From assembly GCA_052171195.1 (NCBI GenBank), contig JBQMZB010000001.1, forward strand, positions 336,734-400,733: a stretch of 64,000 nt of DNA. The letters are read 5' to 3'. Each line of letters opens with the position of its first letter. Position 1 is the stretch's first letter. This document shows positions 19,980-56,074 of the stretch, piece by piece. The notes beneath the pieces are model-generated. The model was not told the DNA's origin and did not search any database. It saw only the letters and a list, made by a program, of their open reading frames with translations. Both the position numbers and the translations under genes were made by a program. The DNA is from Bacillales bacterium. GTDB lineage: Bacteria; Bacillota_I; Bacilli_A; RFN20; CAG-826.

Positions 19980-20627
19980 ATGTCTTTTGATAATGGTAAA
20001 TTTATATTTTTTGATTTAGATGGAACTTTAATTAATACTTTAAAAGGTATTACTGTTGCCTTAAATAACACTCTTAATTATTTTAATTATCCATTTACAT
20101 ACGAATATGATGAAGTAAAAAACTTTCTAGGACATGGTGCTAGATATCTCTACATGAGTGCAACAAAAAAAGATTTTTTGGATGAAGATGAGTATATATA
20201 TTTCTCTAAAGAATATTCTATAAATCAAAATCTAAGTGAAGTTTTTGAAGGAGTTATAGACGGTTTAAAAATACTTCAATCAAAAGGCTTTAAATTATTC
20301 ATATATTCAAATAAACCAGATAACTTATTACAAGACATTTGTAAAGAAAAATTAGATGAAATAAAATTTGTAAAAATCCAAGGAAATATTAAAGAATATC
20401 CAGTTAAACCAGATCCAACATTGTTAAATAAAATAATTAATGATTATTCTTTAAATAAAGAAAATGGTTATTATGTTGGAGATAGTGAAGTAGATTTATT
20501 GCTTTCTAGAAATTGTGGATTAAAATCAATATTAGTCTTATTTGGATTTGGTAATTATGAAACGATAAATTTAAATGATGCTTATAAAACAGTAAATAAA
20601 TTTGAAGAGATATTAGAAATTGTCTAA
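19980..20627 (+). CDS. HAD-superfamily hydrolase (phosphatase, PGP-like)
   Basis: 'FFDLDGTLINT' motif I and a 'YVGDSEVDLL' motif. Confidence 0.6.
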   Translation: MSFDNGKFIFFDLDGTLINTLKGITVALNNTLNYFNYPFTYEYDEVKNFLGHGARYLYMSATKKDFLDEDEYIYFSKEYSINQNLSEVFEGVIDGLKILQSKGFKLFIYSNKPDNLLQDICKEKLDEIKFVKIQGNIKEYPVKPDPTLLNKIINDYSLNKENGYYVGDSEVDLLLSRNCGLKSILVLFGFGNYETINLNDAYKTVNKFEEILEIV

Positions 20628-20702
20628 TATCTTTTTTATTTTTATATTAAATTAAGTATTATTAATGATATTTAAAATTTTAATAGTTATAATATTATAA
20701 AT

Positions 20703-22019
20703 ATGGAGAAAAAAATTAGAGAAGATTATATATTTAAAAAGAAGTGTTTATTAATTTTATTATACCTATGTTATATAGATAATTTTGATTATAAATCTTT
20801 ATTATTTAGAAATTTCGGTTTTACATTTGAGGAAGCTTGTAATTTTAAAATTTTTATTAAAAATAATGATAATAATTTTTATAAAGGTCTTATCTATATT
20901 TACGAAGATAATAATGTTATTGATTATTCTTTATTTGATAAAGAAAATAACATTAATATATTTAAGGTAGATAAAGTTAGTCACAAAAATAATTATTACA
21001 AACCTAAATCTGCATTGAATATTTATTTCGATGAATCTAATTTTTTAGCGGTAGGATATTTAAATAATAAGTACACTAAATATTTATTAATTGATGATAC
21101 TGACTCTGTTTTTAAAGAAGAATTATTATTTAAGTTAGCGTATAATAACAATGTTAAGAATGTTAATTCTAGTGCTAATTCATTTATTTTATGGTTGTTA
21201 AGATTTTATTCTTCCAACTTAAATTTTGACTTAGTATTAGGTGCAGGAATTAATTTAGATTATGGCGCTAAAGATTGGCATCAACTAGTAGATGCATTAA
21301 ATCTCAATTTTTATGATGACAATAAAATATCTGTAGATCAAATTAAAAAATATGTCGGCCATGAATTATTTGTCTCTTCAAAGTTAATTAAGACTAACGG
21401 ATTTGATGTATATGATTCATTAAATCAAGAACTATATTTATTTAAAGAAGCTAAATCATTTAATGATTCTAATTCAACTTTATACCATATTGTAGATTTT
21501 ATAGAAAATAGTAATGATAAAGTAAATGTTATTACATATAATTACGATACTAATTTAGAATATTTATTACGTAAAAGAAATATTTTATATAACACAATTT
21601 ACGACAACACATCATTTATTAACAAAGATAACTCCGTTGATATTTTCCATGTTCACGGCTTATTACCTTATAATAAAATGAAAGAGAAAAAATACACTAA
21701 TAGTCTTATTTTCTCTGAAAGCGAATATTTTTATCTATATAATAATCCTTACAGTTGGAATATTAGAAAACAATTACATGATTTTAGTTTTAATTGTTGT
21801 CTTTTTATTGGTATTTCTTTGACTGACCCAAATATGAAACGACTTTTAGAGTTAGCTACAAATTATCTTAAATTTAATTTTATTTTTATAAAGAAAAATA
21901 ACGGGATAAATGAAAAAATTTATCGAGATGTTTCAAATTATTTCTTTACTTATGATCTAATAACTATTTGGATTGACGAATTCGATGAAATTAATGATTG
22001 GTTGCAATTATTAATATAA
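20703..22019 (+). CDS. SIR2_2-family (PF13289-like) NADase-like domain protein with a roughly 170-aa N-terminal domain of unknown function; candidate single-gene phage-defence protein
   Basis: 438 aa. Motifs are 'FDLVLGAGINLDYG' (res 176-188), 'VITYNYDTNLE' (276-286), 'IFHVHG' (314-319) and 'LFIGISLTDPNMKRLL'. No SD, with a -10 TATAAT about 13 nt upstream. Visibly more AT-rich than its neighbours. Confidence 0.65.
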   Translation: MEKKIREDYIFKKKCLLILLYLCYIDNFDYKSLLFRNFGFTFEEACNFKIFIKNNDNNFYKGLIYIYEDNNVIDYSLFDKENNINIFKVDKVSHKNNYYKPKSALNIYFDESNFLAVGYLNNKYTKYLLIDDTDSVFKEELLFKLAYNNNVKNVNSSANSFILWLLRFYSSNLNFDLVLGAGINLDYGAKDWHQLVDALNLNFYDDNKISVDQIKKYVGHELFVSSKLIKTNGFDVYDSLNQELYLFKEAKSFNDSNSTLYHIVDFIENSNDKVNVITYNYDTNLEYLLRKRNILYNTIYDNTSFINKDNSVDIFHVHGLLPYNKMKEKKYTNSLIFSESEYFYLYNNPYSWNIRKQLHDFSFNCCLFIGISLTDPNMKRLLELATNYLKFNFIFIKKNNGINEKIYRDVSNYFFTYDLITIWIDEFDEINDWLQLLI

Positions 22020-22025
22020 TTTATA

Positions 22026-22574
22026 TTAAATAATTACTGAATTTTCTATTTGATTAAATGGATTCTCTTTATTTATATGGTCGTAGAAAAGTACACCTTT
22101 TAAATGGTCGTATTCATGTTGAAATATGATTGCTTCTAATCCATAAAATGTATGTGTTTCTTCTTGTTCGGTTAAAATATTATATGCTTTGAAGGTTATT
22201 TTATTCGATCTATAAACATAACCTGGATGTTCTTTATCAACTGATAAACAACCTTCTCCTGATTGAAGACAAACTTTTTTTACTGATTCTGATATAATTT
22301 TAGGATTTATAAAACCATATTGATGTATTTTATCATTTTCATCTTTATAATAAATCGCTAAAAACATTTCATTAATTCCAATTTGAGGTGCAGCAAGTCC
22401 AACTCCTGGTCTAACATTATTTTCTTCGCTCCATTTATCATCTTGAGATAATTTTAAATATTCAAGCATATCAAGTAGTAATTCTTTATATTTACTGTCT
22501 TTTACGTTTTCAACTTTTTTTGAAGGTTTTCTTAATTCTTTATTGTTATCTTTAACTATCTTAAATAATTTCAT
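22026..22574 (-). CDS. def: Peptide deformylase
   Basis: 'GVGLAAPQIG', 'EGCLSV' and 'HEYDHLKG' are the three PDF motifs. Confidence 0.9.
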   Translation of the reverse strand: MKLFKIVKDNNKELRKPSKKVENVKDSKYKELLLDMLEYLKLSQDDKWSEENNVRPGVGLAAPQIGINEMFLAIYYKDENDKIHQYGFINPKIISESVKKVCLQSGEGCLSVDKEHPGYVYRSNKITFKAYNILTEQEETHTFYGLEAIIFQHEYDHLKGVLFYDHINKENPFNQIENSVII

Positions 22575-22627
22575 ATTGTTATTTTATCACAATGTAATTT
22601 ATTATCAAAATATGATAAAATCTAAAT

Positions 22628-24867: not shown

Positions 24868-25258
24868 TAAATTAACCTCCGATTGTATATATACAATGCT
24901 ATAAAAATATACCATTTTTGACCATTTTATTCAAACTTTATTTAAGTTTAATTAATAAAATCTTTTACAATTTGTATTTTATACAAAATATTATTTATTT
25001 TTTTATTAAAAATATTAAAAAATAGATATAAATTTAGAATAAAATAAATGTATAAAAATACACAAAAATATTATAAAAAATTAAGTAAATATCATTGATT
25101 TTGACTTTTTACTTTTTTATAATAAAGATAGTTTTAATAGTTATTAAGATTATTTATTTTATTAATTAATCATCAAGTCTATAATATTTAAAAAATTAAT
25201 AAAATTAACATAATTATAATCTTAATATTAATTTCTTTATATGGAGGGAAAAATAATT

Positions 25259-26435: not shown

Positions 26436-28067
26436 ATGAATAATGAAAATATAATTGAGATGAATCATATTACTAAAACATTCCCAGGAATTATAGCTAA
26501 TGATGATATCACTCTTCAGTTAAAAAAAGGTGAAATACACACATTATTAGGTGAAAACGGAGCAGGTAAATCTACATTAATGTCTATTTTATTTGGTCTT
26601 TATAAACCTGATAAAGGCGAGATATTATTTAAAGGTTCTCCGATTAATATTAAAAATCCAAATGATGCAACAAAATATGGAATTGGTATGGTCCATCAGC
26701 ATTTTATGTTGGTAGATGTTTTTACCGGTCTTCAAAATATTGTTTTAGGATATGAAGAATCTAAAGGTGGAGTATTACAATTTAACGAAACGAAAAAGAA
26801 ATTAAAAATACTTCAAGAAAAATATAGTTTATATGTAGATTTAGATAAAAAAATAGAAGATATGACTGTAGGTATGCAACAAAGAGTTGAAATTCTAAAA
26901 ATGTTATATCGTGATAATGAAATTTTAATTTTTGATGAACCAACAGCAGTATTAACTCCAAACGAAATAGAAGGCCTTATAAAAGTTATTAAAACATTAC
27001 AAAAAGAAGGTAAAACAATTTTATTTATTTCGCATAAATTAAACGAAGTAAAAGAAATTAGTGACCGTATAACTGTATTAAGAAAAGGTAAATATATTGG
27101 TACTTATGAAAATAAAAATTTAACTACTGATGATCTAGCTGCCTTGATGGTTGGAAGAAAAGTTAATTTCAAAACTGAAAAAAGACCTGTTCAAAAAGGT
27201 AAAAAGGTTCTAGAAGTAAACCATTTATTTGTTAAAGGAAAAGGGACGAAATTTTTAGCGAAAGATGTTAATTTTTCTGTTAGTCAAGGTGAAATCGTTG
27301 CATTACTTGGGATTGATGGAAATGGTCAAGAAAATGTGGTCGAAGCTATTACAGGATTGACTAAAATATATAATGGTAATATTTTGTTAAATGGCAATGA
27401 TATTACAAAATATAACATAAATAGAAGAAATAAATCTGGAATTTCTCATATTCCTGCTGATAGACATCGTTATGGTTTAGTATTAGATTATAATATGATG
27501 TATAATTTTATTTTAGAAAATTATAAAGATGAAAAATTTTCAAATAAAGGTTTTTTAAAAAATAAACATATTAAAAAATACGGTGAAGTTTTAATTAAAG
27601 AATACGATATAAGAAGTTCAGAAGGTGTTAAAACTATAACAAGATCTATGAGCGGAGGTAACCAACAAAAAGTTATTGTTGCACGTGAAATTGATAGAAA
27701 CAGCGACTTATTAATTGCAGTTCAACCTACAAGAGGATTAGATGTTGGTGCTATTGAAAATATCCATAATCAAATTCAAAAAGTTAAAGAGAGTAAACAT
27801 GCTGTCTTATTAGTGAGTTTAGAACTTGACGAAGTCTTTGATTTAGCAGATAGAATATTAGTAATCTATGAAGGTGAAATTGTTGGTGAATTTAAACCTG
27901 ATGATATCGACTATTCAGAGATTGGTTTATATATGTCCGGAGCTAAAAAAGACAATAAATTTATTTCAGATTACAATATAGATATTAAGGAAAATTTCTT
28001 CAGAAAAATATTAAATAAAACAAAATTATTTAAAGGTAAGAAGAAGGAGACTAACGAAAATGAATAA
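26436..28067 (+). CDS. ABC transporter ATP-binding protein with two fused NBDs (nucleoside/sugar type)
   Basis: 543 aa. Walker A 'GENGAGKST' and a second 'GIDGNGQEN'. Signature-like 'MSGGNQQK'. Confidence 0.85.
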   Translation: MNNENIIEMNHITKTFPGIIANDDITLQLKKGEIHTLLGENGAGKSTLMSILFGLYKPDKGEILFKGSPINIKNPNDATKYGIGMVHQHFMLVDVFTGLQNIVLGYEESKGGVLQFNETKKKLKILQEKYSLYVDLDKKIEDMTVGMQQRVEILKMLYRDNEILIFDEPTAVLTPNEIEGLIKVIKTLQKEGKTILFISHKLNEVKEISDRITVLRKGKYIGTYENKNLTTDDLAALMVGRKVNFKTEKRPVQKGKKVLEVNHLFVKGKGTKFLAKDVNFSVSQGEIVALLGIDGNGQENVVEAITGLTKIYNGNILLNGNDITKYNINRRNKSGISHIPADRHRYGLVLDYNMMYNFILENYKDEKFSNKGFLKNKHIKKYGEVLIKEYDIRSSEGVKTITRSMSGGNQQKVIVAREIDRNSDLLIAVQPTRGLDVGAIENIHNQIQKVKESKHAVLLVSLELDEVFDLADRILVIYEGEIVGEFKPDDIDYSEIGLYMSGAKKDNKFISDYNIDIKENFFRKILNKTKLFKGKKKETNENE

Positions 28068-29160
28068 TATCAATACATTTTTTAAAGAAAAATTTTCTAT
28101 TCGAAAATTATCGCCAATTCTCGCTTCTATTATATGTGCAATTTTTGGTTTATTAATAGGCGCTATTATTATAATTTTTATTAAACCTCAATCTGCGGAT
28201 CGTGGAATATATAATTTATTTTTTGGTGGATTTAAAAATATACCAAAAATATTATATCTAGCTACACCTATTTTATTAACAGGTTTATCTGTCTCGTTTG
28301 CTTATAAATGCGGATTATTTAACATAGGAAGTAGTGGCCAATTTCTAGCCGGTGGATTAGTTACTTTAATCTCCGCTCATATTTTCCATCTTCCATGGTA
28401 TTTATGTGCTTTATTTGCAATTGTCGCAGGTTTTTTATATGGAGTTATTCCTGGTTTATTGAAAGCATATTTTAATGTTCATGAAGTAATTACTTCGATT
28501 ATGTTAAATTGGATTATGTTATTTATAACTAACCTAATTATTTTAAATGTTCCAGGACTTTTAAACCCAAACGAATATAAGAGTCCACATCTTCCTGCTA
28601 ACTCTGTATTACCAAGAATTAATAATAACCCTTATTTAAATATAGGTATATTTATAGCGATTATTTTGTGTATAGTGGTATTTATTGTTATTAATTACAC
28701 TACTTTTGGATATGAATTAAAAGCTTGTGGTTTTAATAAAGATGCTTCTAAATACGCAGGTATTTCTACAACTAAAAATATAGTGTTAGCAATGGCTATA
28801 AGCGGAGCAATAAGTGGATTAGCTGGAGCTTTATATTATTTAGTTGGTACAATAAGATATCAACCTCAAGTTATTTCTGTTCCAGTTCAAGGATTCAATG
28901 GTATACCAGTTGCGTTACTTGCTAACTCTAATCCTATTGGATGTATAGTAACAGCATTCTTTATTTCTTACCTACAAGTTGCAAGCGATTATATGCAACC
29001 TCATTTCGCTAAAGAAAATATTGATTTAGTTATTGCAATTATTATTTATCTCAGTGCTTTCGCACTCATCATTGCAAACTTAATAAATAACCGTAAACAA
29101 ATTAAAGAATGGTTTAATAAAAAACATAAAATACAAAGGAATAAAAAGGAGGTTAAATAA
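28060..29160 (+). CDS. ABC transporter permease (BMP system)
   Basis: 366 aa polytopic protein, translationally coupled to the ATPase. Confidence 0.75.
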   Translation: MNNINTFFKEKFSIRKLSPILASIICAIFGLLIGAIIIIFIKPQSADRGIYNLFFGGFKNIPKILYLATPILLTGLSVSFAYKCGLFNIGSSGQFLAGGLVTLISAHIFHLPWYLCALFAIVAGFLYGVIPGLLKAYFNVHEVITSIMLNWIMLFITNLIILNVPGLLNPNEYKSPHLPANSVLPRINNNPYLNIGIFIAIILCIVVFIVINYTTFGYELKACGFNKDASKYAGISTTKNIVLAMAISGAISGLAGALYYLVGTIRYQPQVISVPVQGFNGIPVALLANSNPIGCIVTAFFISYLQVASDYMQPHFAKENIDLVIAIIIYLSAFALIIANLINNRKQIKEWFNKKHKIQRNKKEVK

Positions 29161-29162
29161 TT

Positions 29163-30164
29163 ATGAGCGGATCATTTGATTATGCACAATTTTTTGCATT
29201 ATTATTTGCCTTATTCTTTCCGTTAACTATTGTTGCGTTTGGAGGAATGTTTAGTGAAAGAAGTGGCATTATCAACCTTGGTTTAGAAGGTATCATGGTA
29301 ATAGGTAGTTTCTTTGGTTGTTTGTTTGTTGCAGCCTTTAATAAAAATATTAATGGTGTTGATACATGTATTGCTCCTGGTTTAGAACAATTAATTGTGT
29401 TTGGTGGAATATTTGTAGCGATGGTATCAGGTGTATTAATGTCCTTATTATTAGCGTTTGCCTGTATTAATTTAAAGGCTAATCAAACAATTGTTGGTAC
29501 ATCATTAAACATATTAGCGCCAGCATTAGGTATTGTATTAATTTGGTCTATTCAATCAAATTTAAATACAACAATTACCATTCCAAGTTGGTGCAGAATA
29601 GGATATAAAATTCCTTTTAGTCCTAATACTTTTCAAGATTTCATATTTTCAAATTTATATTTAACTTCATTTGTAATATTCTTCTTATTTATATTATTAA
29701 CATTTGTTTTTTATAAAACAAAACTAGGTTTAAGATTAAGAGCATGCGGAGAAAATCCTCAAGCAGCTGATAGTGTTGGAATAAATGTTAAGAAAATGAG
29801 ATATATTGGAACGATGATTGGTGGAGGATGCGCTGCTATTGGTGGTATGGGATATGTTTTAATTACGACTGCCGGTTATAAGGTTGAAAGCGGCGTATCT
29901 GGATATGGATTCTTAGCATTAGCTGTTATGATTTTTGGTAACTGGAAACCATTTGGAGTTTTAGGAGCAGGTTTATTCTTTACATTCTTTAGAATCTTGG
30001 CAACTAACTTAAACATAGAGGCCTTAAAACAAATTAATGGTTCTGGACAAATCTATTCAATGATTCCATACATTGTTACAATAATTGTTTTAGTGTTATT
30101 CAGTAAACATAGCCGTGCTCCAAAAGCAGAAGGTATTCCTTATGATAAAGGTGCACGAAGCTAA
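29163..30164 (+). CDS. ABC transporter permease (BMP system, second subunit)
   Basis: 333 aa polytopic protein. Confidence 0.75.
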   Translation: MSGSFDYAQFFALLFALFFPLTIVAFGGMFSERSGIINLGLEGIMVIGSFFGCLFVAAFNKNINGVDTCIAPGLEQLIVFGGIFVAMVSGVLMSLLLAFACINLKANQTIVGTSLNILAPALGIVLIWSIQSNLNTTITIPSWCRIGYKIPFSPNTFQDFIFSNLYLTSFVIFFLFILLTFVFYKTKLGLRLRACGENPQAADSVGINVKKMRYIGTMIGGGCAAIGGMGYVLITTAGYKVESGVSGYGFLALAVMIFGNWKPFGVLGAGLFFTFFRILATNLNIEALKQINGSGQIYSMIPYIVTIIVLVLFSKHSRAPKAEGIPYDKGARS

Positions 30165-30215: not shown

Positions 30216-30270
30216 TTTATATTTTTTCAAAAGATAGTTAATTTATTTTTATTAGTATTATAATTAGTAT

Positions 30271-31344
30271 ATGTATAAAATTAGAAAAATAAAAAAGAAA
30301 ATTATTAATTATCTTTATGATCATGAATATGCAAAAGAAACTTTAACGCTTATTAAATTAATTGTAATTACTTTAATAAGTTCTTTTTTGTTTACTTTTG
30401 GTTTTAATTCATTTACTAATCCAAATTTTACTGCTATAGCAAACGGAGGGATTGATATAAGTAATGTTTATATACGTCAGCTCGCAAGCTGTGGAGCGAG
30501 TGGTATATCTCAATCACTTTTAACCATTCTTAAAATTTGTAATCTTCAATGGTTAGCAGATGAAAAAAATGCAAATATTTTATATTGGATATTTTATCTA
30601 TCTGTTAATATACCTTTATTAATTCTTGGATGGTTTAAAATTGGTAAAAGATTTGCTTTTTTAACGTTCTTAAATGTTTTTGCTGCCACTGTTTTTGGTA
30701 TTTTATTAAAAAGTGAAGATCCTAATTTTATTACAAATCAAATTTCTAAAATATTTATTGCTCAACCGCTTTCACGCGCAATTTTTGCTGGTATTTTTAC
30801 TGGTGTTGCTTCCGGTCTTGCATATATGATTGAAAGTAGCGCTGGAGGAGCAGATATTTTAAGTTATTATATTAGTGAAAAAAAATCAATCCTTGTTGGT
30901 AAGTATAGTTTAATAATAAATCTTTGTATTATCACATTATTTTCCCTATTATCAATTATTCCGTTAAAACCACCTTTTGAGCAAGGATCAGTTGCGATTT
31001 ATTCTGCTGTTTCAATATTTTTATGTACGGTATGTTATATGATTGTTGTTACATTTACAGTTGATAAAATTAATACACAAAATAAAAAAGTACAAGTTCA
31101 AATTATTACTTCAAAACAAAATTTAAGTGAAAGTATTATTGCAGCGCTTCCTCATAGTTGCACAATTCTTAATGGAATAGGTGGATATAGTTTAGATAAT
31201 AAGATAGTTTTATATATATCTGTTAGAAAAAAAGAATTAAATAAATTAATAAAAATATGTAAAAATGAAGATAAATATGCATTTTTAAATGTTATTCCAC
31301 TTGAAAATGTATATGGTAAATTCTTTAGAAAACCAATTAGATAA
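30271..31344 (+). CDS. YitT-family membrane protein (DUF161 + C-terminal DUF2179)
   Basis: Polytopic N-terminal part, then C-terminal 'LPHSCTILNGIGGYS...ISVRKKELNKL'. Confidence 0.5.
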   Translation: MYKIRKIKKKIINYLYDHEYAKETLTLIKLIVITLISSFLFTFGFNSFTNPNFTAIANGGIDISNVYIRQLASCGASGISQSLLTILKICNLQWLADEKNANILYWIFYLSVNIPLLILGWFKIGKRFAFLTFLNVFAATVFGILLKSEDPNFITNQISKIFIAQPLSRAIFAGIFTGVASGLAYMIESSAGGADILSYYISEKKSILVGKYSLIINLCIITLFSLLSIIPLKPPFEQGSVAIYSAVSIFLCTVCYMIVVTFTVDKINTQNKKVQVQIITSKQNLSESIIAALPHSCTILNGIGGYSLDNKIVLYISVRKKELNKLIKICKNEDKYAFLNVIPLENVYGKFFRKPIR

Positions 31345-31475: not shown

Positions 31476-31815
31476 TTATTTACTAATTATATAGTAATTT
31501 ATCTTTAATGTTAATTATCTTTATATTTAATAGTCGTAAAATTTTACTAGGAAAAATATTAGTTATTTTTTAGTAGAATTTAAATAAACTCCATTCGATA
31601 ATTTTATAATTATTTTTGTTAAATATACTTAACTTTAACTAAAAATAATAAAAAATTAACTATATTTTATATATTCTTTTTCTTTTTTTAAAAATAGAAT
31701 TAGAAAGAATTATAAATTTATAATTTTCATTAAATTTATTAATTATATACTTATAATTAAATAAAAAAATACAAATAAACTTTATAAATATGGTAAAAAT
31801 GATATTATAATTTAT

Positions 31816-33582
31816 ATGAATATAATAAAAAACTTATTATTTATATATTTAACAAATCTAAAACTCAAAGGTAATATTTTATTTATAACTATCATATTGT
31901 TTATTATATCTGGGTTTATTTTATTAACATTTTTTTTGATGTATTATGAAAAAAAATCAAGACATAACCAAATTTTAAAAATGTATCATTGTGATAGAAT
32001 ATTTGTTATCAATTATAAAGATAAAATTGTTGATTTTTTTGATTATAATAATCTTAAAAAAATATCTACTATACAATTCTTTGATTTTTTAAAGTTTTTC
32101 CCAGAACAAGAACAAAATAATATAAGAGCGTATATTGCTGGTTTGTTAAATTTAGAATTTGATAAGAAAAGTAAAGATTCAGTAATATTAACAAATATTA
32201 AAATTCAATATAAAAAGAAATCAGTAGCCTATCGTACAATTTTAAAATGTAGGTATATCGATAAAACAAATCAAATTCTATATATTGACTCATCGAGGTT
32301 AATGAATTCTCCTAGCTTTAATTTTAAAAGATCGTCTAAAAAAGATATTTATGAAATAAAAGAAATTAAGAAATTATATGATGAAGGAAAATTTAATAAA
32401 GGTAGTTTTTATTTATTAAATTTTACAATGAATAATAAAGTTAATTCTTTTATTAATAATCATGTTTTTAAAATAATTTTAATTGATTCGATATACAAAA
32501 TTACAAATAATAACACTTCGTGTTTCTTTTTAAATGATGATAATTTAGAAATAGGTTTATTAGATAATAGAAATTTTACATCATTAGAAATGTCAACGTT
32601 TCTCTCTAAAATAGTGAAAAGAATTGAAATAGCCTTTGAATTAAATGGTCTTAAAGATTTATATAATTACTATATATGTAGTTCGCTTGTCTGTGATTTA
32701 CCATTATATTACGATGATGCCTATATAACCTTAAGTACTTTCTTAAAAAAATCAAAAGATATTAATAGAGTAATTTCAGTTTATAAGAGTAATGATAAAA
32801 ATATTTTAACAGAATTTAATTTCAAAAATGAAATTAATAAGATTATCAAGCATTCTGAATTTAAAATAAAATATCAACCTATTATTCAGATTAAACCTCA
32901 CGCTATCACCATCAACGGATATTTTGTCTCAATTGATATAAATTCGAAATTTATTAATGATTATAATAGCTTTATTAATTACGTTAAAAATTATTCAATG
33001 TTAGATAATGTATTAACAACGTTGTTAAATAAAATTGTACCTAATTTCGTTAATCAAATTGATGATAAAAATTTAAAACTTATTATCAATTTAGATTTAG
33101 ACTCATTTAAGGTTGTAAAAGATATTCTTCCTAAAATTCATAAAATTAATGATTGTAAATTAGAAATTGTATTAAATTCAAGTGAGATAACCAATATAGA
33201 AGATGAAAATGATGAAATTATTATGATAATTAGAGAATTAAAAAAGAATGGTCATTTTGTTAGTCTTTTAATCAAGAATGATGACTTAATTTTGAAAGAA
33301 AGAATATATCGTATATTTAATAACTATTATGTAGATTCAGCTTTAGAAAATGATCTTAAGGAAGATTCTAGAAGTTTGATTAAAGCTAGTTCATTATTCT
33401 CTTATCTCCAAAAAATGAATCATAAAGTCATTGCCATGAATATTAATTCTTTTTCTGCAATTGAATTATTATTAAATTTGTCTATTAATCATTTCTCAAG
33501 TGTAGTAATATCTAAATCAGAAGAAATGGTTTTACCTTTGGATAATAAGGTAGTTAAAAAATTATTAAATTTAAGAAAGTAG
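31816..33582 (+). CDS. Membrane-anchored protein with a degenerate EAL-like C-terminal domain, possibly preceded by a degenerate GGDEF-like region
   Basis: N-terminal TM helix. Residues about 345-588 carry 'KYQPIIQIKPHAITINGYFVSID' (YQPI present, EAL degenerate), 'LEIVLNSSEI', 'HFVSLLIKNDD' (DDFGTG lost) and 'VIAMNINSF' (EGVE lost). Very AT-rich. Confidence 0.4.
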   Translation: MNIIKNLLFIYLTNLKLKGNILFITIILFIISGFILLTFFLMYYEKKSRHNQILKMYHCDRIFVINYKDKIVDFFDYNNLKKISTIQFFDFLKFFPEQEQNNIRAYIAGLLNLEFDKKSKDSVILTNIKIQYKKKSVAYRTILKCRYIDKTNQILYIDSSRLMNSPSFNFKRSSKKDIYEIKEIKKLYDEGKFNKGSFYLLNFTMNNKVNSFINNHVFKIILIDSIYKITNNNTSCFFLNDDNLEIGLLDNRNFTSLEMSTFLSKIVKRIEIAFELNGLKDLYNYYICSSLVCDLPLYYDDAYITLSTFLKKSKDINRVISVYKSNDKNILTEFNFKNEINKIIKHSEFKIKYQPIIQIKPHAITINGYFVSIDINSKFINDYNSFINYVKNYSMLDNVLTTLLNKIVPNFVNQIDDKNLKLIINLDLDSFKVVKDILPKIHKINDCKLEIVLNSSEITNIEDENDEIIMIIRELKKNGHFVSLLIKNDDLILKERIYRIFNNYYVDSALENDLKEDSRSLIKASSLFSYLQKMNHKVIAMNINSFSAIELLLNLSINHFSSVVISKSEEMVLPLDNKVVKKLLNLRK

Positions 33583-35300: not shown

Positions 35301-35368
35301 TTTATCAAATAATCGATATATTTAAATATCGTTTATTAATAATAAGATTTTTTTGTTATAATTTTACT

Positions 35369-41709: not shown

Positions 41710-41771
41710 AAATAATTTATTTTAAAAGTATATTTATATAATAATTTATAAGTATTTGTTATAATTTTTGT

Positions 41772-48864: not shown

Positions 48865-50076
48865 ATGGAATCTATTAAAAATATTTTTATTATTGGATAT
48901 GGACCATCTTCATCACACACTATCGGTCCTTATAAGGCTTGTTTATCCTTTATAGAAAATAATGATTTTGATTTTGTTGAAGTTTACTTATATGGTTCTT
49001 TAGCCTTGACAGGTAGAGGTCATTTAACTGATGTAATTATTAAAAAAGCTTTAAATTCTATTCCAAATGAGGTAATTTTTGTCAATAAATTAGATAATTT
49101 AAAACATCCAAATACTTTATTATGTAAAGGATATAAAAATAATATTTTAATAAAAGAACAAGAATATTATTCTTTAGGTGGTGGTAAAATTTCTAAAAAT
49201 CTAGATAAAAATTATATAAGCGAAGATGTTTACCCTTTTAATAATTTTGAAGAAATTAAAGAATATTTAAAAAATAATAATTTAGATTTAATAAATTTTA
49301 TAAACAAATTTGAAAATAATGATTTAGATGAGTATTTTGATAATATATTTAATAAAATTATTTACGAATTAGAAAATAATTTATTTAAAGAAGGTATTAT
49401 TCCTGGTAAATTAAAATTACAAAGAGTGAGTAAAAAAATATATGACGATGCTTTAAAATTAAATAATGAAGAAGAGAAAAAAGTAATGTTAGTTACTTCT
49501 TTTGCATATGCTTGTAGTGAAGGGAATGCATGTGGAGAAGAAGTTGTTACTGCTCCAACTTGTGGTTCTTGCGGTGTATTACCATCTATATGTTATTATG
49601 AATATAAATATAATAAACGAGATAAAAAAGGTATTATAAATGCTCTTAAAATAGCTGGTCTGATCGGGAATATTTGCAAATGCAACGCATCGATAAGTGG
49701 TGCTGTTCATGGATGTCAAGCAGAAATTGGAGTCGCGGCTTCAATGGCCAGTGCAGCTTTAGCATATTTAAATAATCTAAGTCTATATCAAATTGAATAT
49801 GCTGCTGAAGTTGCCCTTGAACATTTTTTAGGCTTAACCTGTGATCCTGTTATGGGGTATGTTCAAATCCCTTGTATTGAAAGAAACGGGATAGCTGCAA
49901 TGCGAGCATACACTAGTTATTTTTATGCTAAAAATATATCTATTTATAGAGTTAATCGTGTAAGTTTAGATGATGTAGTGTATACTATGCGAATTACAGG
50001 TGATTCTTTAAATCCTGACTATAAAGAAACTAGTAAAGGCGGACTTGCTAAATTATTTAAAGAAACTAAAGTTTAA
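48865..50076 (+). CDS. sdaA: L-serine dehydratase, iron-sulfur dependent, fused beta-alpha single chain
   Basis: N-terminal 'GYGPSSSHTIGP' (beta-chain motif) and 'APTCGSCGVLPS' (alpha-chain Cys cluster). Confidence 0.75.
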   Translation: MESIKNIFIIGYGPSSSHTIGPYKACLSFIENNDFDFVEVYLYGSLALTGRGHLTDVIIKKALNSIPNEVIFVNKLDNLKHPNTLLCKGYKNNILIKEQEYYSLGGGKISKNLDKNYISEDVYPFNNFEEIKEYLKNNNLDLINFINKFENNDLDEYFDNIFNKIIYELENNLFKEGIIPGKLKLQRVSKKIYDDALKLNNEEEKKVMLVTSFAYACSEGNACGEEVVTAPTCGSCGVLPSICYYEYKYNKRDKKGIINALKIAGLIGNICKCNASISGAVHGCQAEIGVAASMASAALAYLNNLSLYQIEYAAEVALEHFLGLTCDPVMGYVQIPCIERNGIAAMRAYTSYFYAKNISIYRVNRVSLDDVVYTMRITGDSLNPDYKETSKGGLAKLFKETKV

Positions 50077-51970
50077 TTTTTCTATTATAATTAATTAAAA
50101 ATGTAACTAAACAACACATAATTGTTACACCAACATCTGCAAAAATTGATATATATATCGCATAATTGCTAAATAAACCTAAACTATTTGATAAAATTGC
50201 TAAAACTTTTGTGCTTATAGCGAATATTAAATTAAATAATATAATATTTTTTGTTTTCCTTGAAAATCTAAATAATTTTATAATACTTATTAAATTATCA
50301 TCCATTAAAACTATATCACTATATTCTATAGCGATATCACTACCTTTTATACCCATAGATATTGCAATATCTGAATTTACCATTGATGGTGTATCATTTA
50401 TACCATCTCCTACAAACATTTTTTTACACTTATCTTCTTTAATTATTTTTGATTTATCAAGTGGTAATAAATCTGAATAATAGTTATTAATATGAATTTT
50501 TTCTACTAATGTTTTAACAGATTTATTGTTATCGCCACTTAACAAAATTACTTTTTTTGATTTTTTATTTTTAAGATAATTTATAACATTTTCAGCGTTT
50601 GATTTTATTTTTTCTGACAAAATAATATATCCAATTTTTTCATCATTATAAGACACATATACAATTGTTTCAATTGTATTTACTTCTTCGAAAAATATAT
50701 TATTTTCTATCATTAAGTTTTTGTTCCCTATAATGGCTTTTTTATCATTGATCGTGCAAATAATACCCTTACCTTCAATTTCTTGATAGTAAGTCATCTC
50801 TAGATTATTAATATCTACATTTTCACAATAGTCATATAAAGTTTTTGCAATTGGGTGATTAGAATTTTTTTCACTAATTTTTAATAATTGTAATAAAAGT
50901 GTGGAATTATCCTCGTTATATAAAATTATATTAGTTACTTTTAACATACCTTCAGTCAAGGTACCAGTCTTATCAAAGTAAATATTTTTAATTTTGTTTA
51001 TATTATCTATAGTTAAATTTTCTTTTATCAATATTTTATGTTTACTAAAATTACCTATTGAAATAATATAGGCCATTGGAATGGAAATAAGCAAAGAGCA
51101 TGGGCAAGAAATAACTAAAATTGAAGCTCCACGATATAAGTATTCTTTTAAGTTGATGATTTCTTCAAATTTAATTAATTCATAAACTGAAGGTATTATC
51201 ATAGTTAAAAATGCTAACATTATAACTAAAGGAGTATAAATTTTGGCAAATTTTTTTATAAATTTAATAGATTTAGTTTTTCTTTGATCAGGATTTTCAA
51301 TTATATTTAAAATTTGTGTCATAGTGGAATCTTTATATTCTTTACTGACTTTTATTTTTAAAATTGAACTTTTATTTATTGTACCTGAGAGAACTTCTTC
51401 TCCCAAAACACTTTTATTTAACTTAGATTCACCTGTTAAAGATGAGAAATCAAGATAGGATTCTCCTTCGATAATGTAGCCATTAACTGGAATTATTTCT
51501 CCTGGTTTTACTAAAATTAAATCGTTGATTGTTAATGATTCTGGGTCAACTTCAATATAAGTATTATTTATGAATTTATGGGCAGTTTTTGGCTTCAAAT
51601 TTAAAATATTAGATAATGATTTTTTAGATTTGTTTAATGAATATTCTTCAAACATTTCACCTATTGAAAAGAAAATAATAATAGCTAGTGCTTCATTAAA
51701 TTTACCAATTGCAAGAGCAGTGATAGATGAGATAAGTGTTAAATCATATTCAGAAAAATAATCTTTATTTTTTAATGATTTAATAGATTTTTTTATAATA
51801 TTTATCTCGTTCAATAATAGAGTTATAGTTACAATAATATTTATTGATAGTTCAATATTTACAATTTTATCTGGATAATATTTTAATAATAATTCATAGA
51901 TAAAAGATAGGATTAATATAATTAAGGATGTAATGATTAAATTTCTTTTATTAAATATTTTTTTTATCAT
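50066..51970 (-). CDS. cadA: P1B-type heavy-metal (Cd/Zn/Co-type) translocating ATPase, no N-terminal HMA domain
   Basis: 'SCPCSLL' (CPC), 'DKTGTLT' and 'VGDGINDTP'. It overlaps the upstream cadC stop by 4 nt. Confidence 0.85.
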   Translation of the reverse strand: MIKKIFNKRNLIITSLIILILSFIYELLLKYYPDKIVNIELSINIIVTITLLLNEINIIKKSIKSLKNKDYFSEYDLTLISSITALAIGKFNEALAIIIFFSIGEMFEEYSLNKSKKSLSNILNLKPKTAHKFINNTYIEVDPESLTINDLILVKPGEIIPVNGYIIEGESYLDFSSLTGESKLNKSVLGEEVLSGTINKSSILKIKVSKEYKDSTMTQILNIIENPDQRKTKSIKFIKKFAKIYTPLVIMLAFLTMIIPSVYELIKFEEIINLKEYLYRGASILVISCPCSLLISIPMAYIISIGNFSKHKILIKENLTIDNINKIKNIYFDKTGTLTEGMLKVTNIILYNEDNSTLLLQLLKISEKNSNHPIAKTLYDYCENVDINNLEMTYYQEIEGKGIICTINDKKAIIGNKNLMIENNIFFEEVNTIETIVYVSYNDEKIGYIILSEKIKSNAENVINYLKNKKSKKVILLSGDNNKSVKTLVEKIHINNYYSDLLPLDKSKIIKEDKCKKMFVGDGINDTPSMVNSDIAISMGIKGSDIAIEYSDIVLMDDNLISIIKLFRFSRKTKNIILFNLIFAISTKVLAILSNSLGLFSNYAIYISIFADVGVTIMCCLVTFLINYNRKIKL

Positions 51971-52260
51971 AAAGTTTCCTCTTCAATATGCGCTATTGCT
52001 GTTTTAAGAATTATTGAAACATGTTCATCATCTAAACTATAAAAAATATTTTTTCCTTCTCTTCTATATTTAACAATCCGATTATCTTTTAATATTTTTA
52101 ATTGATGAGAAACAGCGGACTGGCTCATTTCTAAAGTCTTAGATATTTCACCAGCACTTAATTCTTTTTCATCTAAAACATATAAAATTTTGATTCGAGA
52201 TTCGTCCCCGAAAACTTTAAGAAAATTTCCAACATAATTAAATCTAACTTTACTTTTCAT
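51967..52260 (-). CDS. cadC: ArsR/SmtB-family metalloregulator (CadC-like)
   Basis: wHTH 'ELSAGEISKTLEMSQSAVSHQLKILK'. The likely start is 'MKSKVRF' at 52260 (GGAG SD), and the listed start at 52275 lies inside the operator palindrome. Confidence 0.7.
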   Translation of the reverse strand: MKSKVRFNYVGNFLKVFGDESRIKILYVLDEKELSAGEISKTLEMSQSAVSHQLKILKDNRIVKYRREGKNIFYSLDDEHVSIILKTAIAHIEEETL

Positions 52261-52273
52261 ATAATACTCCAAC

Positions 52274-52293
52274 ATATGAACATATGTTCATAT
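52274..52293. promoter_or_regulatory. Perfect inverted repeat ATATGAACAT|ATGTTCATAT, candidate CadC/SmtB-type operator in the cadCA / flavodoxin-like divergent promoter region
   Basis: A 20-bp palindrome lies immediately upstream of the cadC SD. The ArsR/SmtB family is known to bind 12-2-12-type inverted repeats that overlap its own promoter. Confidence 0.5.
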
Positions 52294-56010: not shown

Positions 56011-56074
56011 AAAATTATTTTATCATATTTTATTAATGTTTAAATTATATTGTTTTTAAAGTATAATATTATTT

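What the first reader, a model, noticed from the sequence alone, without database searches (positions are those of the whole stretch)
20628..22025. Solo SIR2_2-type NADase-like gene with an unknown N-terminal domain, wedged between ldh-HAD and def: candidate single-gene anti-phage defence system
The 438-aa ORF carries the three hallmark blocks of the defence-associated SIR2_2 family in the right order: 'LVLGAGINLDYG', 'VITYNYDTNLE' and 'IFHVHG...LFIGISLTDPNMKRLL'. This is the family found in ThsA, DSR1/2, SIR2-HerA and SIR2-APAZ. Here there is no TIR, HerA, pAgo, SLOG or STAND partner anywhere nearby, and the first ~170 aa match nothing I recognise, so they could form a sensor domain. The gene is visibly more AT-rich than the flanking housekeeping genes. 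It has no Shine-Dalgarno, only a TATAAT about 13 nt upstream of the ATG. It also sits in a syntenic gap, because def is convergent only 6 nt after its stop. That pattern fits a horizontally acquired accessory gene. Small standalone SIR2 proteins with novel N-terminal domains are not among the well-characterised defence architectures.
Basis: partly seen in the sequence, partly recalled or inferred. Interest (0 to 1): 0.78.

Follow-up and report, generated by a model that had tools for sequence, protein, structure and literature searches.

The report
Lineage-conserved defence-type SIR2 gene
The gene is real and encodes an NAD-cleaving enzyme of the kind bacteria use against phages, but it is an old, vertically inherited, strongly conserved gene of a group of small-genome gut bacteria, not a recently acquired defence gene.

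Summary

- Full-length orthologues (49-68% identity) occur in at least 117 species genomes of AT-rich gut Bacilli (CAG-288/RFN20-like).
- Their divergence tracks EF-Tu (Spearman 0.93).
- Their GC3 tracks the flanking genes (r=0.98 over GC3 0.07-0.76).
- dN/dS is 0.01-0.07 in both domains.
- Neighbours are housekeeping genes, not defence or mobile genes.
- No family member was found on viral, phage or plasmid records.
- The gene's third-position GC is not unusual for the window.

The nearest outgroup (25-39% identity, about 450 aa) does sit in defence islands.

Best reading: a defence-derived, catalytically intact, gated NAD+-cleaving enzyme fixed as a core gene. Its trigger and role (cellular switch or fixed immunity) are unresolved.

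The parts
20688..20693 (+). TATAAT, a -10-like hexamer ending 9 nt before the ATG, with no Shine-Dalgarno; a possible promoter of a leaderless or near-leaderless transcript
   Evidence: Read from the sequence. The same pattern occurs upstream of several other SD-less genes in the window. Not significant on its own.
20703..22019 (+). Complete ORF, 438 aa: SIR2_2 ('sirim'-type) protein
   Evidence: AF2 pLDDT 83.4, pTM 0.87.
20703..21218 (+). N-terminal domain, aa 1-172: helix 3-25 followed by a beta-sheet; restriction-endonuclease-like fold with no conserved D/E/K catalytic motif
21219..22016 (+). SIR2 domain, aa 173-438: seven-stranded Rossmann-type sheet, no Cys4 zinc module
21240..21248 (+). 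G180-A181-G182, the NAD-binding glycine loop
   Evidence: Invariant in 93 orthologues. G180 and G182 are also invariant in the outgroup alignment.
21540..21548 (+). N280-Y281-D282, the predicted catalytic Asn and Asp
   Evidence: Invariant in the family and in the outgroup. Codons aat/tac/gat read. Equivalence to ThsA N112 is inferred from the motif and from the 38-residue spacing to H318 (for the ThsA residues).
21648..21656 (+). H316-V317-H318, the predicted catalytic His (H318)
   Evidence: Invariant in the family and in the outgroup.
19980..20627 (+). Upstream neighbour: HAD-family phosphatase. In sister species it abuts the SIR2 gene (0-13 nt in five of six loci)
22026..22574 (-). Convergent downstream neighbour: peptide deformylase. 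In sister species psuG-psuK lie between SIR2 and def

Best explanation
The gene encodes a two-domain enzyme. The C-terminal domain is a defence-type (ThsA/KomC-like, 'sirim') SIR2 domain with an intact NAD+ pocket. The N-terminal domain is a restriction-endonuclease-fold module that has no nuclease catalytic motif and most likely acts as a binding or regulatory domain. The gene is not a recent import. It is a single, vertically inherited, strongly constrained core gene of a lineage of small-genome gut Bacilli (CAG-288/RFN20-like), and it has been moved around within their chromosomes by rearrangement. It probably descends from the about-450-aa 'N-domain + SIR2' proteins that other Firmicutes carry in defence islands. 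Proposed mechanism (inferred): the enzyme is kept inactive until the N-domain binds a cue. It then assembles into oligomers or filaments, as its structural relatives ThsA, KomBC, Avs5 and FAM118B do, and cleaves NAD+ to nicotinamide and ADP-ribose. I slightly favour a co-opted cellular role, meaning a chromosomally fixed NAD+/nucleotide-turnover or growth-arrest switch, over classical phage defence. Shown: fold, motifs, conservation, vertical inheritance and contexts. Inferred: NADase chemistry, gating by the N-domain, oligomer activation and biological role.
For: Fold and active site:
- SIR2_2 hit.
- Seven strands and only two adjacent Cys, so no zinc module.
- G180/G182, N280, D282, H316 and H318 are invariant in 93 orthologues and in the outgroup.

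Core gene, vertically inherited:
- 117 species genomes carry it, and the 80 loci kept are distinct.
- The whole family collapses to one 50%-identity representative.
- SIR2 pairwise identity correlates with EF-Tu (Spearman 0.93), rpsG (0.80) and rpsL (0.78).
- SIR2 GC3 against flanking-gene GC3: r=0.983, mean difference +0.008, over GC3 0.07-0.76.
- dN/dS is 0.069 against a conspecific strain, similar to ldh (0.058) and def (0.128).
- dN/dS is 0.01-0.07 in both domains in close species pairs.
- The gene is much better conserved (about 64-72% identity) than non-ribosomal neighbours (28-46%).
- 10 of 10 contigs found through the HAD neighbour in a sister species carry it.

Context:
- Only housekeeping, membrane or transport neighbours, with no PADLOC hits among them apart from one weak match (E=1.3e-4) of the HAD neighbour to a generic 'Hydrolase' model.
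- Nucleotide-salvage genes recur next to it: HAD, psuG, psuK, guaA, a uridine-kinase-like gene and an HD hydrolase.
- Not on mobile DNA.

Defence ancestry:
- Outgroup members sit inside a type I R-M operon beside a TIR-like gene and recombinases, or beside an AAA_15 ATPase and a DpnII R-M system.
- Distant relatives occur on viral contigs.

Oligomer activation in relatives: abstracts listed.
Against: - No biochemical or genetic data exist, and the lineage is uncultured.
- All close structural relatives with known function are anti-phage or immune effectors. A published survey argues that the whole bacterial 'sirim' clade is immune. A fixed immune role therefore remains a serious alternative.
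- N-domain homology to the outgroup N-domain is not demonstrated (hhalign E=0.33).
- The link to nucleotide-salvage neighbours covers only some clades and could be chance.
- One split copy exists (L117), though on a 4.3x-coverage contig.
Confidence: 0.45

Rival explanations
1. It is still an anti-phage abortive-infection effector. It acts as a single-gene sensor (N-domain) plus NADase (SIR2) system that became fixed and is inherited vertically, because these reduced-genome bacteria exchange few genes.
For: The closest folds are all immune NADases. The catalytic residues are intact. The nearest sequence outgroup lies in defence islands. Bacterial sirims in general are enriched in defence neighbourhoods.
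Against: Defence genes are normally patchy, mobile and clustered in islands. This gene is present in at least 117 species, tracks EF-Tu and host GC3, has no defence or mobile neighbours, and shows no presence/absence polymorphism in 10 of 10 sampled contigs. The putative sensor domain is under strong purifying selection (dN/dS 0.01-0.07), which is unlike sensors in an arms race. A sensor of a conserved small molecule could, however, be this constrained.
Confidence: 0.35
2. One reading: a horizontally acquired, accessory, solo SIR2 defence gene inserted into a syntenic gap between ldh-HAD and def.
For: The ldh-HAD|SIR2|def arrangement is confined to the window's own genus-level group. The gene has its own promoter-like TATAAT and overall GC below the window mean.
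Against: GC3 is native both in the window and in 77 other genomes. Orthologues at 49-68% identity occur across the lineage in other housekeeping contexts, so the local novelty is an intragenomic relocation. The conspecific strain has identical synteny with dN/dS 0.069. No family member was found on viral, phage or plasmid records.
Confidence: 0.04
3. It is a housekeeping enzyme with a different SIR2 chemistry, such as protein or small-molecule ADP-ribosylation or deacylation, rather than bulk NAD+ hydrolysis.
Confidence: 0.12
4. It is a decaying or non-functional remnant of a former defence gene.
For: The N-domain lacks nuclease catalytic residues. One split copy was found.
Against: Orthologues have a full, near-constant length of 431-441 aa. 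All catalytic SIR2 residues are invariant. dN/dS is 0.01-0.07. The split copy is on a 4.3x-coverage contig.
Confidence: 0.02

Closest known systems
ThsA, the SIR2 effector of type I Thoeris (e.g. PDB 7uxt)
   Different: ThsA has the SIR2 domain at the N-terminus and a SLOG (or Macro) sensor at the C-terminus, and it works with a TIR protein, ThsB. Here SIR2 is C-terminal, the other domain is a restriction-endonuclease-like fold, no TIR gene is nearby, and the gene is a core gene rather than an island gene. Sequence similarity to solved ThsA is negligible (E=0.23).
KomC, the SIR2 subunit of the Kongming system (PDB 8zsf, 9v0g)
   Different: KomC is a SIR2-only protein (chains of 264-277 residues). 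From my own knowledge of the Kongming system, it depends on KomA and KomB and on a nucleotide signal. No such partners are next to this gene in any of the contexts seen.
About-450-aa 'N-terminal domain + C-terminal SIR2' proteins of other Firmicutes (e.g. WP_314196846.1 of Abiotrophia defectiva; P0128-P0142)
   Same: Nearest sequence relatives outside the family: 25-39% identity, the same length class and the same domain order. All SIR2 catalytic positions are shared.
   Different: They are patchy and diverse: 863 representatives at 50% identity with E below 1e-10, against a single representative for this family. They are found in defence islands, either inside a type I R-M operon with a TIR-like gene or beside an AAA_15 ATPase and a DpnII R-M system. 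Their N-domain carries an 'FD...EIK' PD-(D/E)xK-like motif that this family lacks, and the two N-domains show no significant profile similarity.
FAM118A/FAM118B (SIRanc), vertebrate sirim-type SIR2 proteins
   Different: They are eukaryotic, have a different domain make-up and have a reported role in TLR signalling. No evolutionary link to this family is implied.
Canonical sirtuins (CobB/Sir2, PF02146)
   Same: Same superfamily and the same NAD+ pocket architecture.

Membership tests
Pfam SIR2_2 (PF13289) | Profile match above the curated gathering score | tested here: met
   50.8 bits against a cut-off of 24.5, E=2.4e-13, aa 276-384.
Defence-type SIR2 ('sirim') structural subfamily | Fold closer to ThsA-like proteins than to sirtuins, with a Rossmann sheet of seven or more strands and no zinc module | tested here: met
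Defence-type SIR2 ('sirim') structural subfamily | Conserved catalytic Asn and His (ThsA N112/H152) | tested here: met
   N280 and H318 are invariant in 93 orthologues and in the outgroup. Their spacing is 38 residues, against 40 in ThsA. Residue-level equivalence is inferred from the motif, not from a superposition.
Anti-phage defence system (operational criteria) | Location in defence islands or association with mobile elements | tested here: not met
   Neighbours in 80 loci are ribosomal, translation, metabolic, transport and membrane genes. Apart from a weak match (E=1.3e-4) of the HAD neighbour to a generic 'Hydrolase' model, they give no PADLOC hits. The window contains only housekeeping genes. 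No family member was found on viral, phage or plasmid records.
Anti-phage defence system (operational criteria) | Patchy, horizontally transferred distribution with presence/absence polymorphism | tested here: not met
   Co-divergence with EF-Tu (Spearman 0.93). GC3 r=0.983 with flanking genes. 10 of 10 HAD-anchored contigs carry it. A full prevalence census could not be run.
Anti-phage defence system (operational criteria) | Protection against phage when expressed | not testable with these tools
   This needs an experiment.
Thoeris (ThsA/ThsB) | ThsA architecture of SIR2 plus a SLOG or Macro domain, with an adjacent TIR-domain ThsB | tested here: not met
   Only SIR2_2 was detected, and it is C-terminal. 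The N-domain has a restriction-endonuclease-like fold, not SLOG. No TIR gene occurs within +/-10 kb.
Kongming (KomABC) | KomC SIR2 encoded together with KomA and KomB partners | tested here: not met
   The neighbours are ldh, a HAD phosphatase and def here. Elsewhere they are RDD-family membrane proteins, tuf, arsR, malQ and others.
DSR1/DSR2, SIR2-HerA, SIR2-APAZ/pAgo, Avs5 | A large sensor-domain fusion (over 1000 aa or STAND) or an adjacent HerA or pAgo partner | tested here: not met
   The protein is 438 aa with no such domains and no such neighbours.
PD-(D/E)xK nuclease superfamily (N-terminal domain) | Restriction-endonuclease core fold | tested here: inconclusive
PD-(D/E)xK nuclease superfamily (N-terminal domain) | Conserved catalytic D...(D/E)xK motif | tested here: not met
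   The invariant N-domain residues are Y9, K13, L16, F38, G39, F40, D79, N85, N106, Y108, G118 and F161, and they form no D...(D/E)xK pattern. Positions aligned to the outgroup's FD...EIK motif read FG...FK(I/A)(F/I).

The most novel reading that the evidence does not exclude
An immune-type (sirim) SIR2 NADase has been domesticated in bacteria. In this reading it has become an indispensable core regulator of NAD+/nucleotide economy or growth arrest in a whole order-level lineage of reduced-genome gut Bacilli. It would be gated by a degenerate nuclease-fold domain and, in most species, would be co-expressed with a pair of RDD-family membrane proteins. That would be a bacterial counterpart of vertebrate FAM118/SIRanc, and an exception to the view that bacterial sirims are all mobile immune genes.
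Probability: 0.3. Interest if true: 0.75.

Novelty: new variant of a known kind. Interest (0 to 1): 0.5.

Why it matters
Defence-type SIR2 enzymes are treated as markers of mobile anti-phage immunity, and genome-mining pipelines call them as such. This family shows that such a call can mislead. The enzyme class is right, but the evolutionary behaviour is that of a core gene. It is single, vertically inherited, compositionally native and under strong constraint in both domains across more than 100 species with GC3 from 0.07 to 0.76. If the role is cellular, this is a bacterial case of an immune NADase being co-opted. If it is immune, it is a rare example of a defence gene fixed over order-level divergence, in organisms that have shed most accessory functions. 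Either outcome can be tested with one recombinant protein and two point mutants. The gene is also common in human and animal gut metagenomes.

Tried and rejected
- Sequence search of the family profile against PDB chains: only ThsA at E=0.23, so not informative.
- NCBIfam: no family.
- PADLOC: only weak SIR2/ThsA1 domain hits (E 1e-5 to 1e-4), with no system-level assignment.
- Profile-profile comparison of this family's N-domain with the outgroup N-domain: not significant (probability 0.2%, E=0.33). I therefore do not claim the two N-domains are homologous.
- Foldseek of the N-domain against viral structures: nothing (best E=0.013, TM 0.33 or below).
- The AlphaFold-database library was not available.
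- Exact look-up of the window's def protein: not on record.
- Promoter scan: TATAAT-type sites occur at chance frequency.
- N-domain profile search of the 5.8-billion-protein set: it listed only 13 short proteins. The two followed up were a split gene and a contig-end truncation. The full-length members were not listed, so the search cannot show that the domain is confined to this family.
- I first assumed the lineage was GTDB order RF39. A check showed Ca. Enterosoma assigned to order RFN20, family CAG-288. The window's own placement remains unverified.
- HAD as a KomB-like partner: rejected, because HAD-SIR2 adjacency is confined to one genus-level group.
- Literature search for SIR2 together with RF39: no papers.

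Full report
**1. The observation**

- The ORF runs 20703..22019 on the + strand and encodes 438 aa.
- Pfam SIR2_2 matches above threshold: 50.8 bits, E=2.4e-13.
- PADLOC gives only weak domain-level hits: SIR2 at 1.3e-5 and ThsA1 at 8.7e-5. NCBIfam gives nothing.
- ldh and a HAD phosphatase lie upstream. Peptide deformylase is convergent, 6 nt after the stop.
- TATAAT (20688-20693) ends 9 nt before the ATG, and there is no Shine-Dalgarno.

**2. Composition**

- Gene GC is 0.213. The mean for window genes is 0.272 (SD 0.051), and many other window genes are at or below 0.21.
- Third-position GC is 0.159 against a mean of 0.146.
- The AT excess therefore comes from an N/K/I/F/Y-rich protein, not from foreign codon usage.
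- Promoter-like hexamers occur at chance frequency in this AT-rich DNA.
- Several other genes without a Shine-Dalgarno in the window have a -10-like box 6-10 nt before the ATG. This start architecture looks like a habit of the genome, not a mark of foreignness.

**3. Structure**

- With a 93-sequence alignment, AlphaFold2 gives pLDDT 83.4 and pTM 0.87.
- Residues 173-438 form a seven-stranded SIR2 domain.
- Together with the lack of a Cys4 site, this puts the domain in the defence-type 'sirim' branch as defined.
- G180/G182, N280, D282, E286, H316, H318, E339, W352, Q357, D375 and R380 are invariant in the family and in distant relatives. The NAD+ site is therefore intact.
- Residues 1-172, modelled alone, reach pLDDT 86.4.
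- The best structural matches of this N-domain are almost all PD-(D/E)xK restriction-endonuclease-fold proteins: PaqCI 6.0, Cap4 5.3, BsmI 4.9, Bax1 4.8, NgoMIV 4.6, LmuA 4.3, HamA 4.2 and MspJI 4.2. The result is consistent but weak.
- No conserved D...(D/E)xK motif is present.

**4. Distribution and inheritance**

- The 5.8-billion-protein search found 239 clusters. The top 120 are all full length (415-448 aa, nearly all 431-441) at 51-98% identity.
- One scan of species-representative genomes found 117 genomes with a relative. The 80 loci kept are all distinct contigs from AT-rich to mid-GC gut MAGs labelled Bacilli, 'Mollicutes', Ca. Onthovivens, Ca. Enterosoma and Clostridium sp. CAG:288.
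- Ca. Enterosoma is assigned to GTDB order RFN20, family CAG-288. The window's exact placement was not established.
- At 50% clustering the whole family is a single representative. The next relatives drop to 25-39% identity.

Four independent tests point to vertical inheritance under strong constraint:
- SIR2 pairwise identity tracks that of adjacent EF-Tu (Spearman 0.93), rpsG (0.80) and rpsL (0.78). SIR2 is far better conserved (about 64-72%) than non-ribosomal neighbours (28-46%).
- SIR2 GC3 equals flanking-gene GC3 across 77 genomes whose GC3 spans 0.07-0.76 (r=0.983, mean difference +0.008).
- Against a conspecific strain with identical synteny (L085), dN/dS is 0.069, like ldh (0.058) and def (0.128). 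In close species pairs, dN/dS is 0.01-0.07 in the N-domain and 0.005-0.056 in the SIR2 domain.
- Sampling a sister species through its HAD gene, which is blind to SIR2, gave 10 of 10 contigs from ten samples with HAD-SIR2-psuG-psuK-guaA.

No family member was found on IMG/VR viral contigs, phage records or plasmids. Only SIR2-domain relatives at 32% identity or below were seen there.

**5. Genomic context**

- The ldh-HAD|SIR2|def arrangement occurs only in the window's own group (L001-L007, L085, L100-L109).
- Those sister species have psuG-psuK between SIR2 and def, which the window lacks. Spacing there is tight: 0-13 nt in five of the six loci with the HAD junction, and 12-14 nt to psuG.
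- Other clades have different arrangements: arsR(-)/P-type ATPase(-)|SIR2|malQ-rimO; rpsL-rpsG-fusA-tuf|SIR2; and udk-like-guaA-HD|SIR2.
- In the window, the arsR/P-ATPase site (50066-52275) lacks the gene.
- In more distant genomes the HAD gene follows rplQ directly, with no SIR2 after it.
- The gene has therefore been relocated within chromosomes while being retained.
- In 56 of 80 loci one or, more often, two RDD-family membrane protein genes lie at the locus, in most cases immediately downstream. The spacing is often -19 to +5 nt, which suggests co-transcription.
- No RDD homologue was found in the 64-kb window.
- Apart from a weak match (E=1.3e-4) of the HAD neighbour to a generic 'Hydrolase' model, none of the recurrent neighbours matches a PADLOC model. 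The rest of the window is housekeeping: PFOR, UvrA, Lgt, ABC-F and others.

**6. Origin**

- The nearest outgroup is a large, diverse set of about-450-aa proteins with the same domain order: 863 representatives with E below 1e-10.
- Sampled members lie in defence contexts. P0131 sits inside a type I R-M operon (hsdM, a weakly TIR-like 216-aa gene, hsdS, SIR2, hsdR) next to recombinases. P0132 sits beside an AAA_15 ATPase and a DpnII R-M system. P0128 is solo in Abiotrophia.
- Their N-domains carry an 'FD...PVxFEIK' motif of PD-(D/E)xK type.
- This family's N-domain is not significantly similar to them by profile comparison. Descent of the N-domain is therefore plausible but unproven.
- The simplest history is that a defence-type 'N-domain + SIR2' gene became fixed in the ancestor of this lineage and then evolved slowly.

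**7. Mechanism and role**

- The intact pocket predicts NAD+ cleavage.
- The relatives with known mechanism are held off until a cue drives oligomer or filament assembly: ThsA, KomBC, Avs5 and FAM118B/SIRanc. A conserved, non-catalytic N-domain is the obvious candidate for that gate.
- The gene behaves like a core gene. Its sensor-like domain is tightly constrained. Its neighbours are housekeeping genes, recurrently nucleotide-salvage genes.
- On that basis I put a co-opted cellular role (an NAD+/nucleotide-turnover or arrest switch) at about 0.45 and a fixed anti-phage role at about 0.35.
- The shared core of the first two readings is a vertically inherited, catalytically intact, sirim-type SIR2 core gene. 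I hold that with about 0.9 confidence.

**8. Verdict**

The enzyme family is right.
- Novelty: a new variant of a known kind.
- Interest is moderate (0.5). It is a clear, testable exception to the expectation that bacterial defence-type SIR2 genes are mobile and patchy, but there are no functional data.

Noticed in passing
window 22575-22627, 30251-30270, 31796-31815, 35349-35368, 41752-41771, 56011-56074 (regions upstream of start codons): Many genes without a Shine-Dalgarno have a -10-like box (TATAAT, or TGATAAAAT with an extended -10) ending about 6-10 nt before the ATG. Examples are def, the ylbF-like gene, and the genes starting at 30271, 31816, 35369, 41772, 56010 (minus strand) and 56075. 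This suggests leaderless or near-leaderless mRNAs are common in this genome. Ribosomal-protein genes, in contrast, have strong GGAG sites.
   Followed up: partly
window 26436-30164 (ATPase and permease genes of the ABC transporter that begins with the Bmp-family binding-protein gene at 25241): Against a conspecific strain (L085), most genes are 96.5-99.7% identical in DNA. The transporter genes measured (26436-30164) are only 73-84% identical, with dS above 1. This is a sharply more diverged, probably recombined or diversifying, segment.
   Followed up: no
window 22020-22025; L001-L007 and L100-L109: Sister species carry psuG (pseudouridine-5'-phosphate glycosidase) and psuK (PfkB kinase) directly after the SIR2 gene, with a 12-14 nt gap. 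The window and its conspecific L085 lack both and have def 6 nt after the stop. This is a lineage-specific loss, or a gain in the sister species, of about 1.8 kb.
   Followed up: partly
L015, L019, L023, L026, L027, L047 and others (56 of 80 loci): One or two tandem RDD-family membrane protein genes (about 355 aa) lie at the locus, in most cases directly downstream of the SIR2 gene, often overlapping it by 4-19 nt. In many loci they are followed by a 500-aa membrane protein and a sugar ABC transporter. The pairing persists even where the block is inverted (L020, L048, L062, L063, L069, L074). Its function is unknown.
   Followed up: partly
L081-L084, 3900-12450: A distant relative (P0131, 446 aa) lies inside a type I R-M operon: hsdM, a 216-aa protein with a weak TIR-like PADLOC hit (E=1e-4), a 215-aa unknown, hsdS, SIR2 and hsdR, next to a serine recombinase. 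It may be a Thoeris-like module embedded in an R-M system.
   Followed up: no
L002, L003, L005, L007, L027, L029, L050, L072, L073 (record titles): Several MAG records carrying the gene are titled as unrelated taxa, such as Gemmiger formicilis, Parabacteroides goldsteinii, Slackia, Bacteroides uniformis and Roseburia hominis. L002, L003, L005 and L007 share the window's synteny and have a GC of 0.27-0.29. The other five loci listed have other contexts and a GC of 0.43-0.49. At least for the first four, the organism names of these 'cleanbin' assemblies look unreliable.
   Followed up: partly
L117 3001-4308: One orthologue is split into a 231-aa and a 170-aa ORF, in the arsR|SIR2|malQ context, on a contig with 4.3x coverage. 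This is either a sequencing frameshift or a rare pseudogene.
   Followed up: no
L118 1-3762: A more divergent member (N-domain 39% identical, cut by the contig end) lies next to a 1681-aa DUF4011/AAA_11/AAA_12 helicase and an AAA_14/DUF4143 ATPase. This context differs from all the others and may be defence-like.
   Followed up: no
window 31816-33582: A very AT-rich (GC 0.20) 588-aa ORF has only a sub-threshold EAL-domain match (25.9 bits against a cut-off of 31.3). It may be a degenerate cyclic-di-GMP phosphodiesterase-like protein.
   Followed up: no
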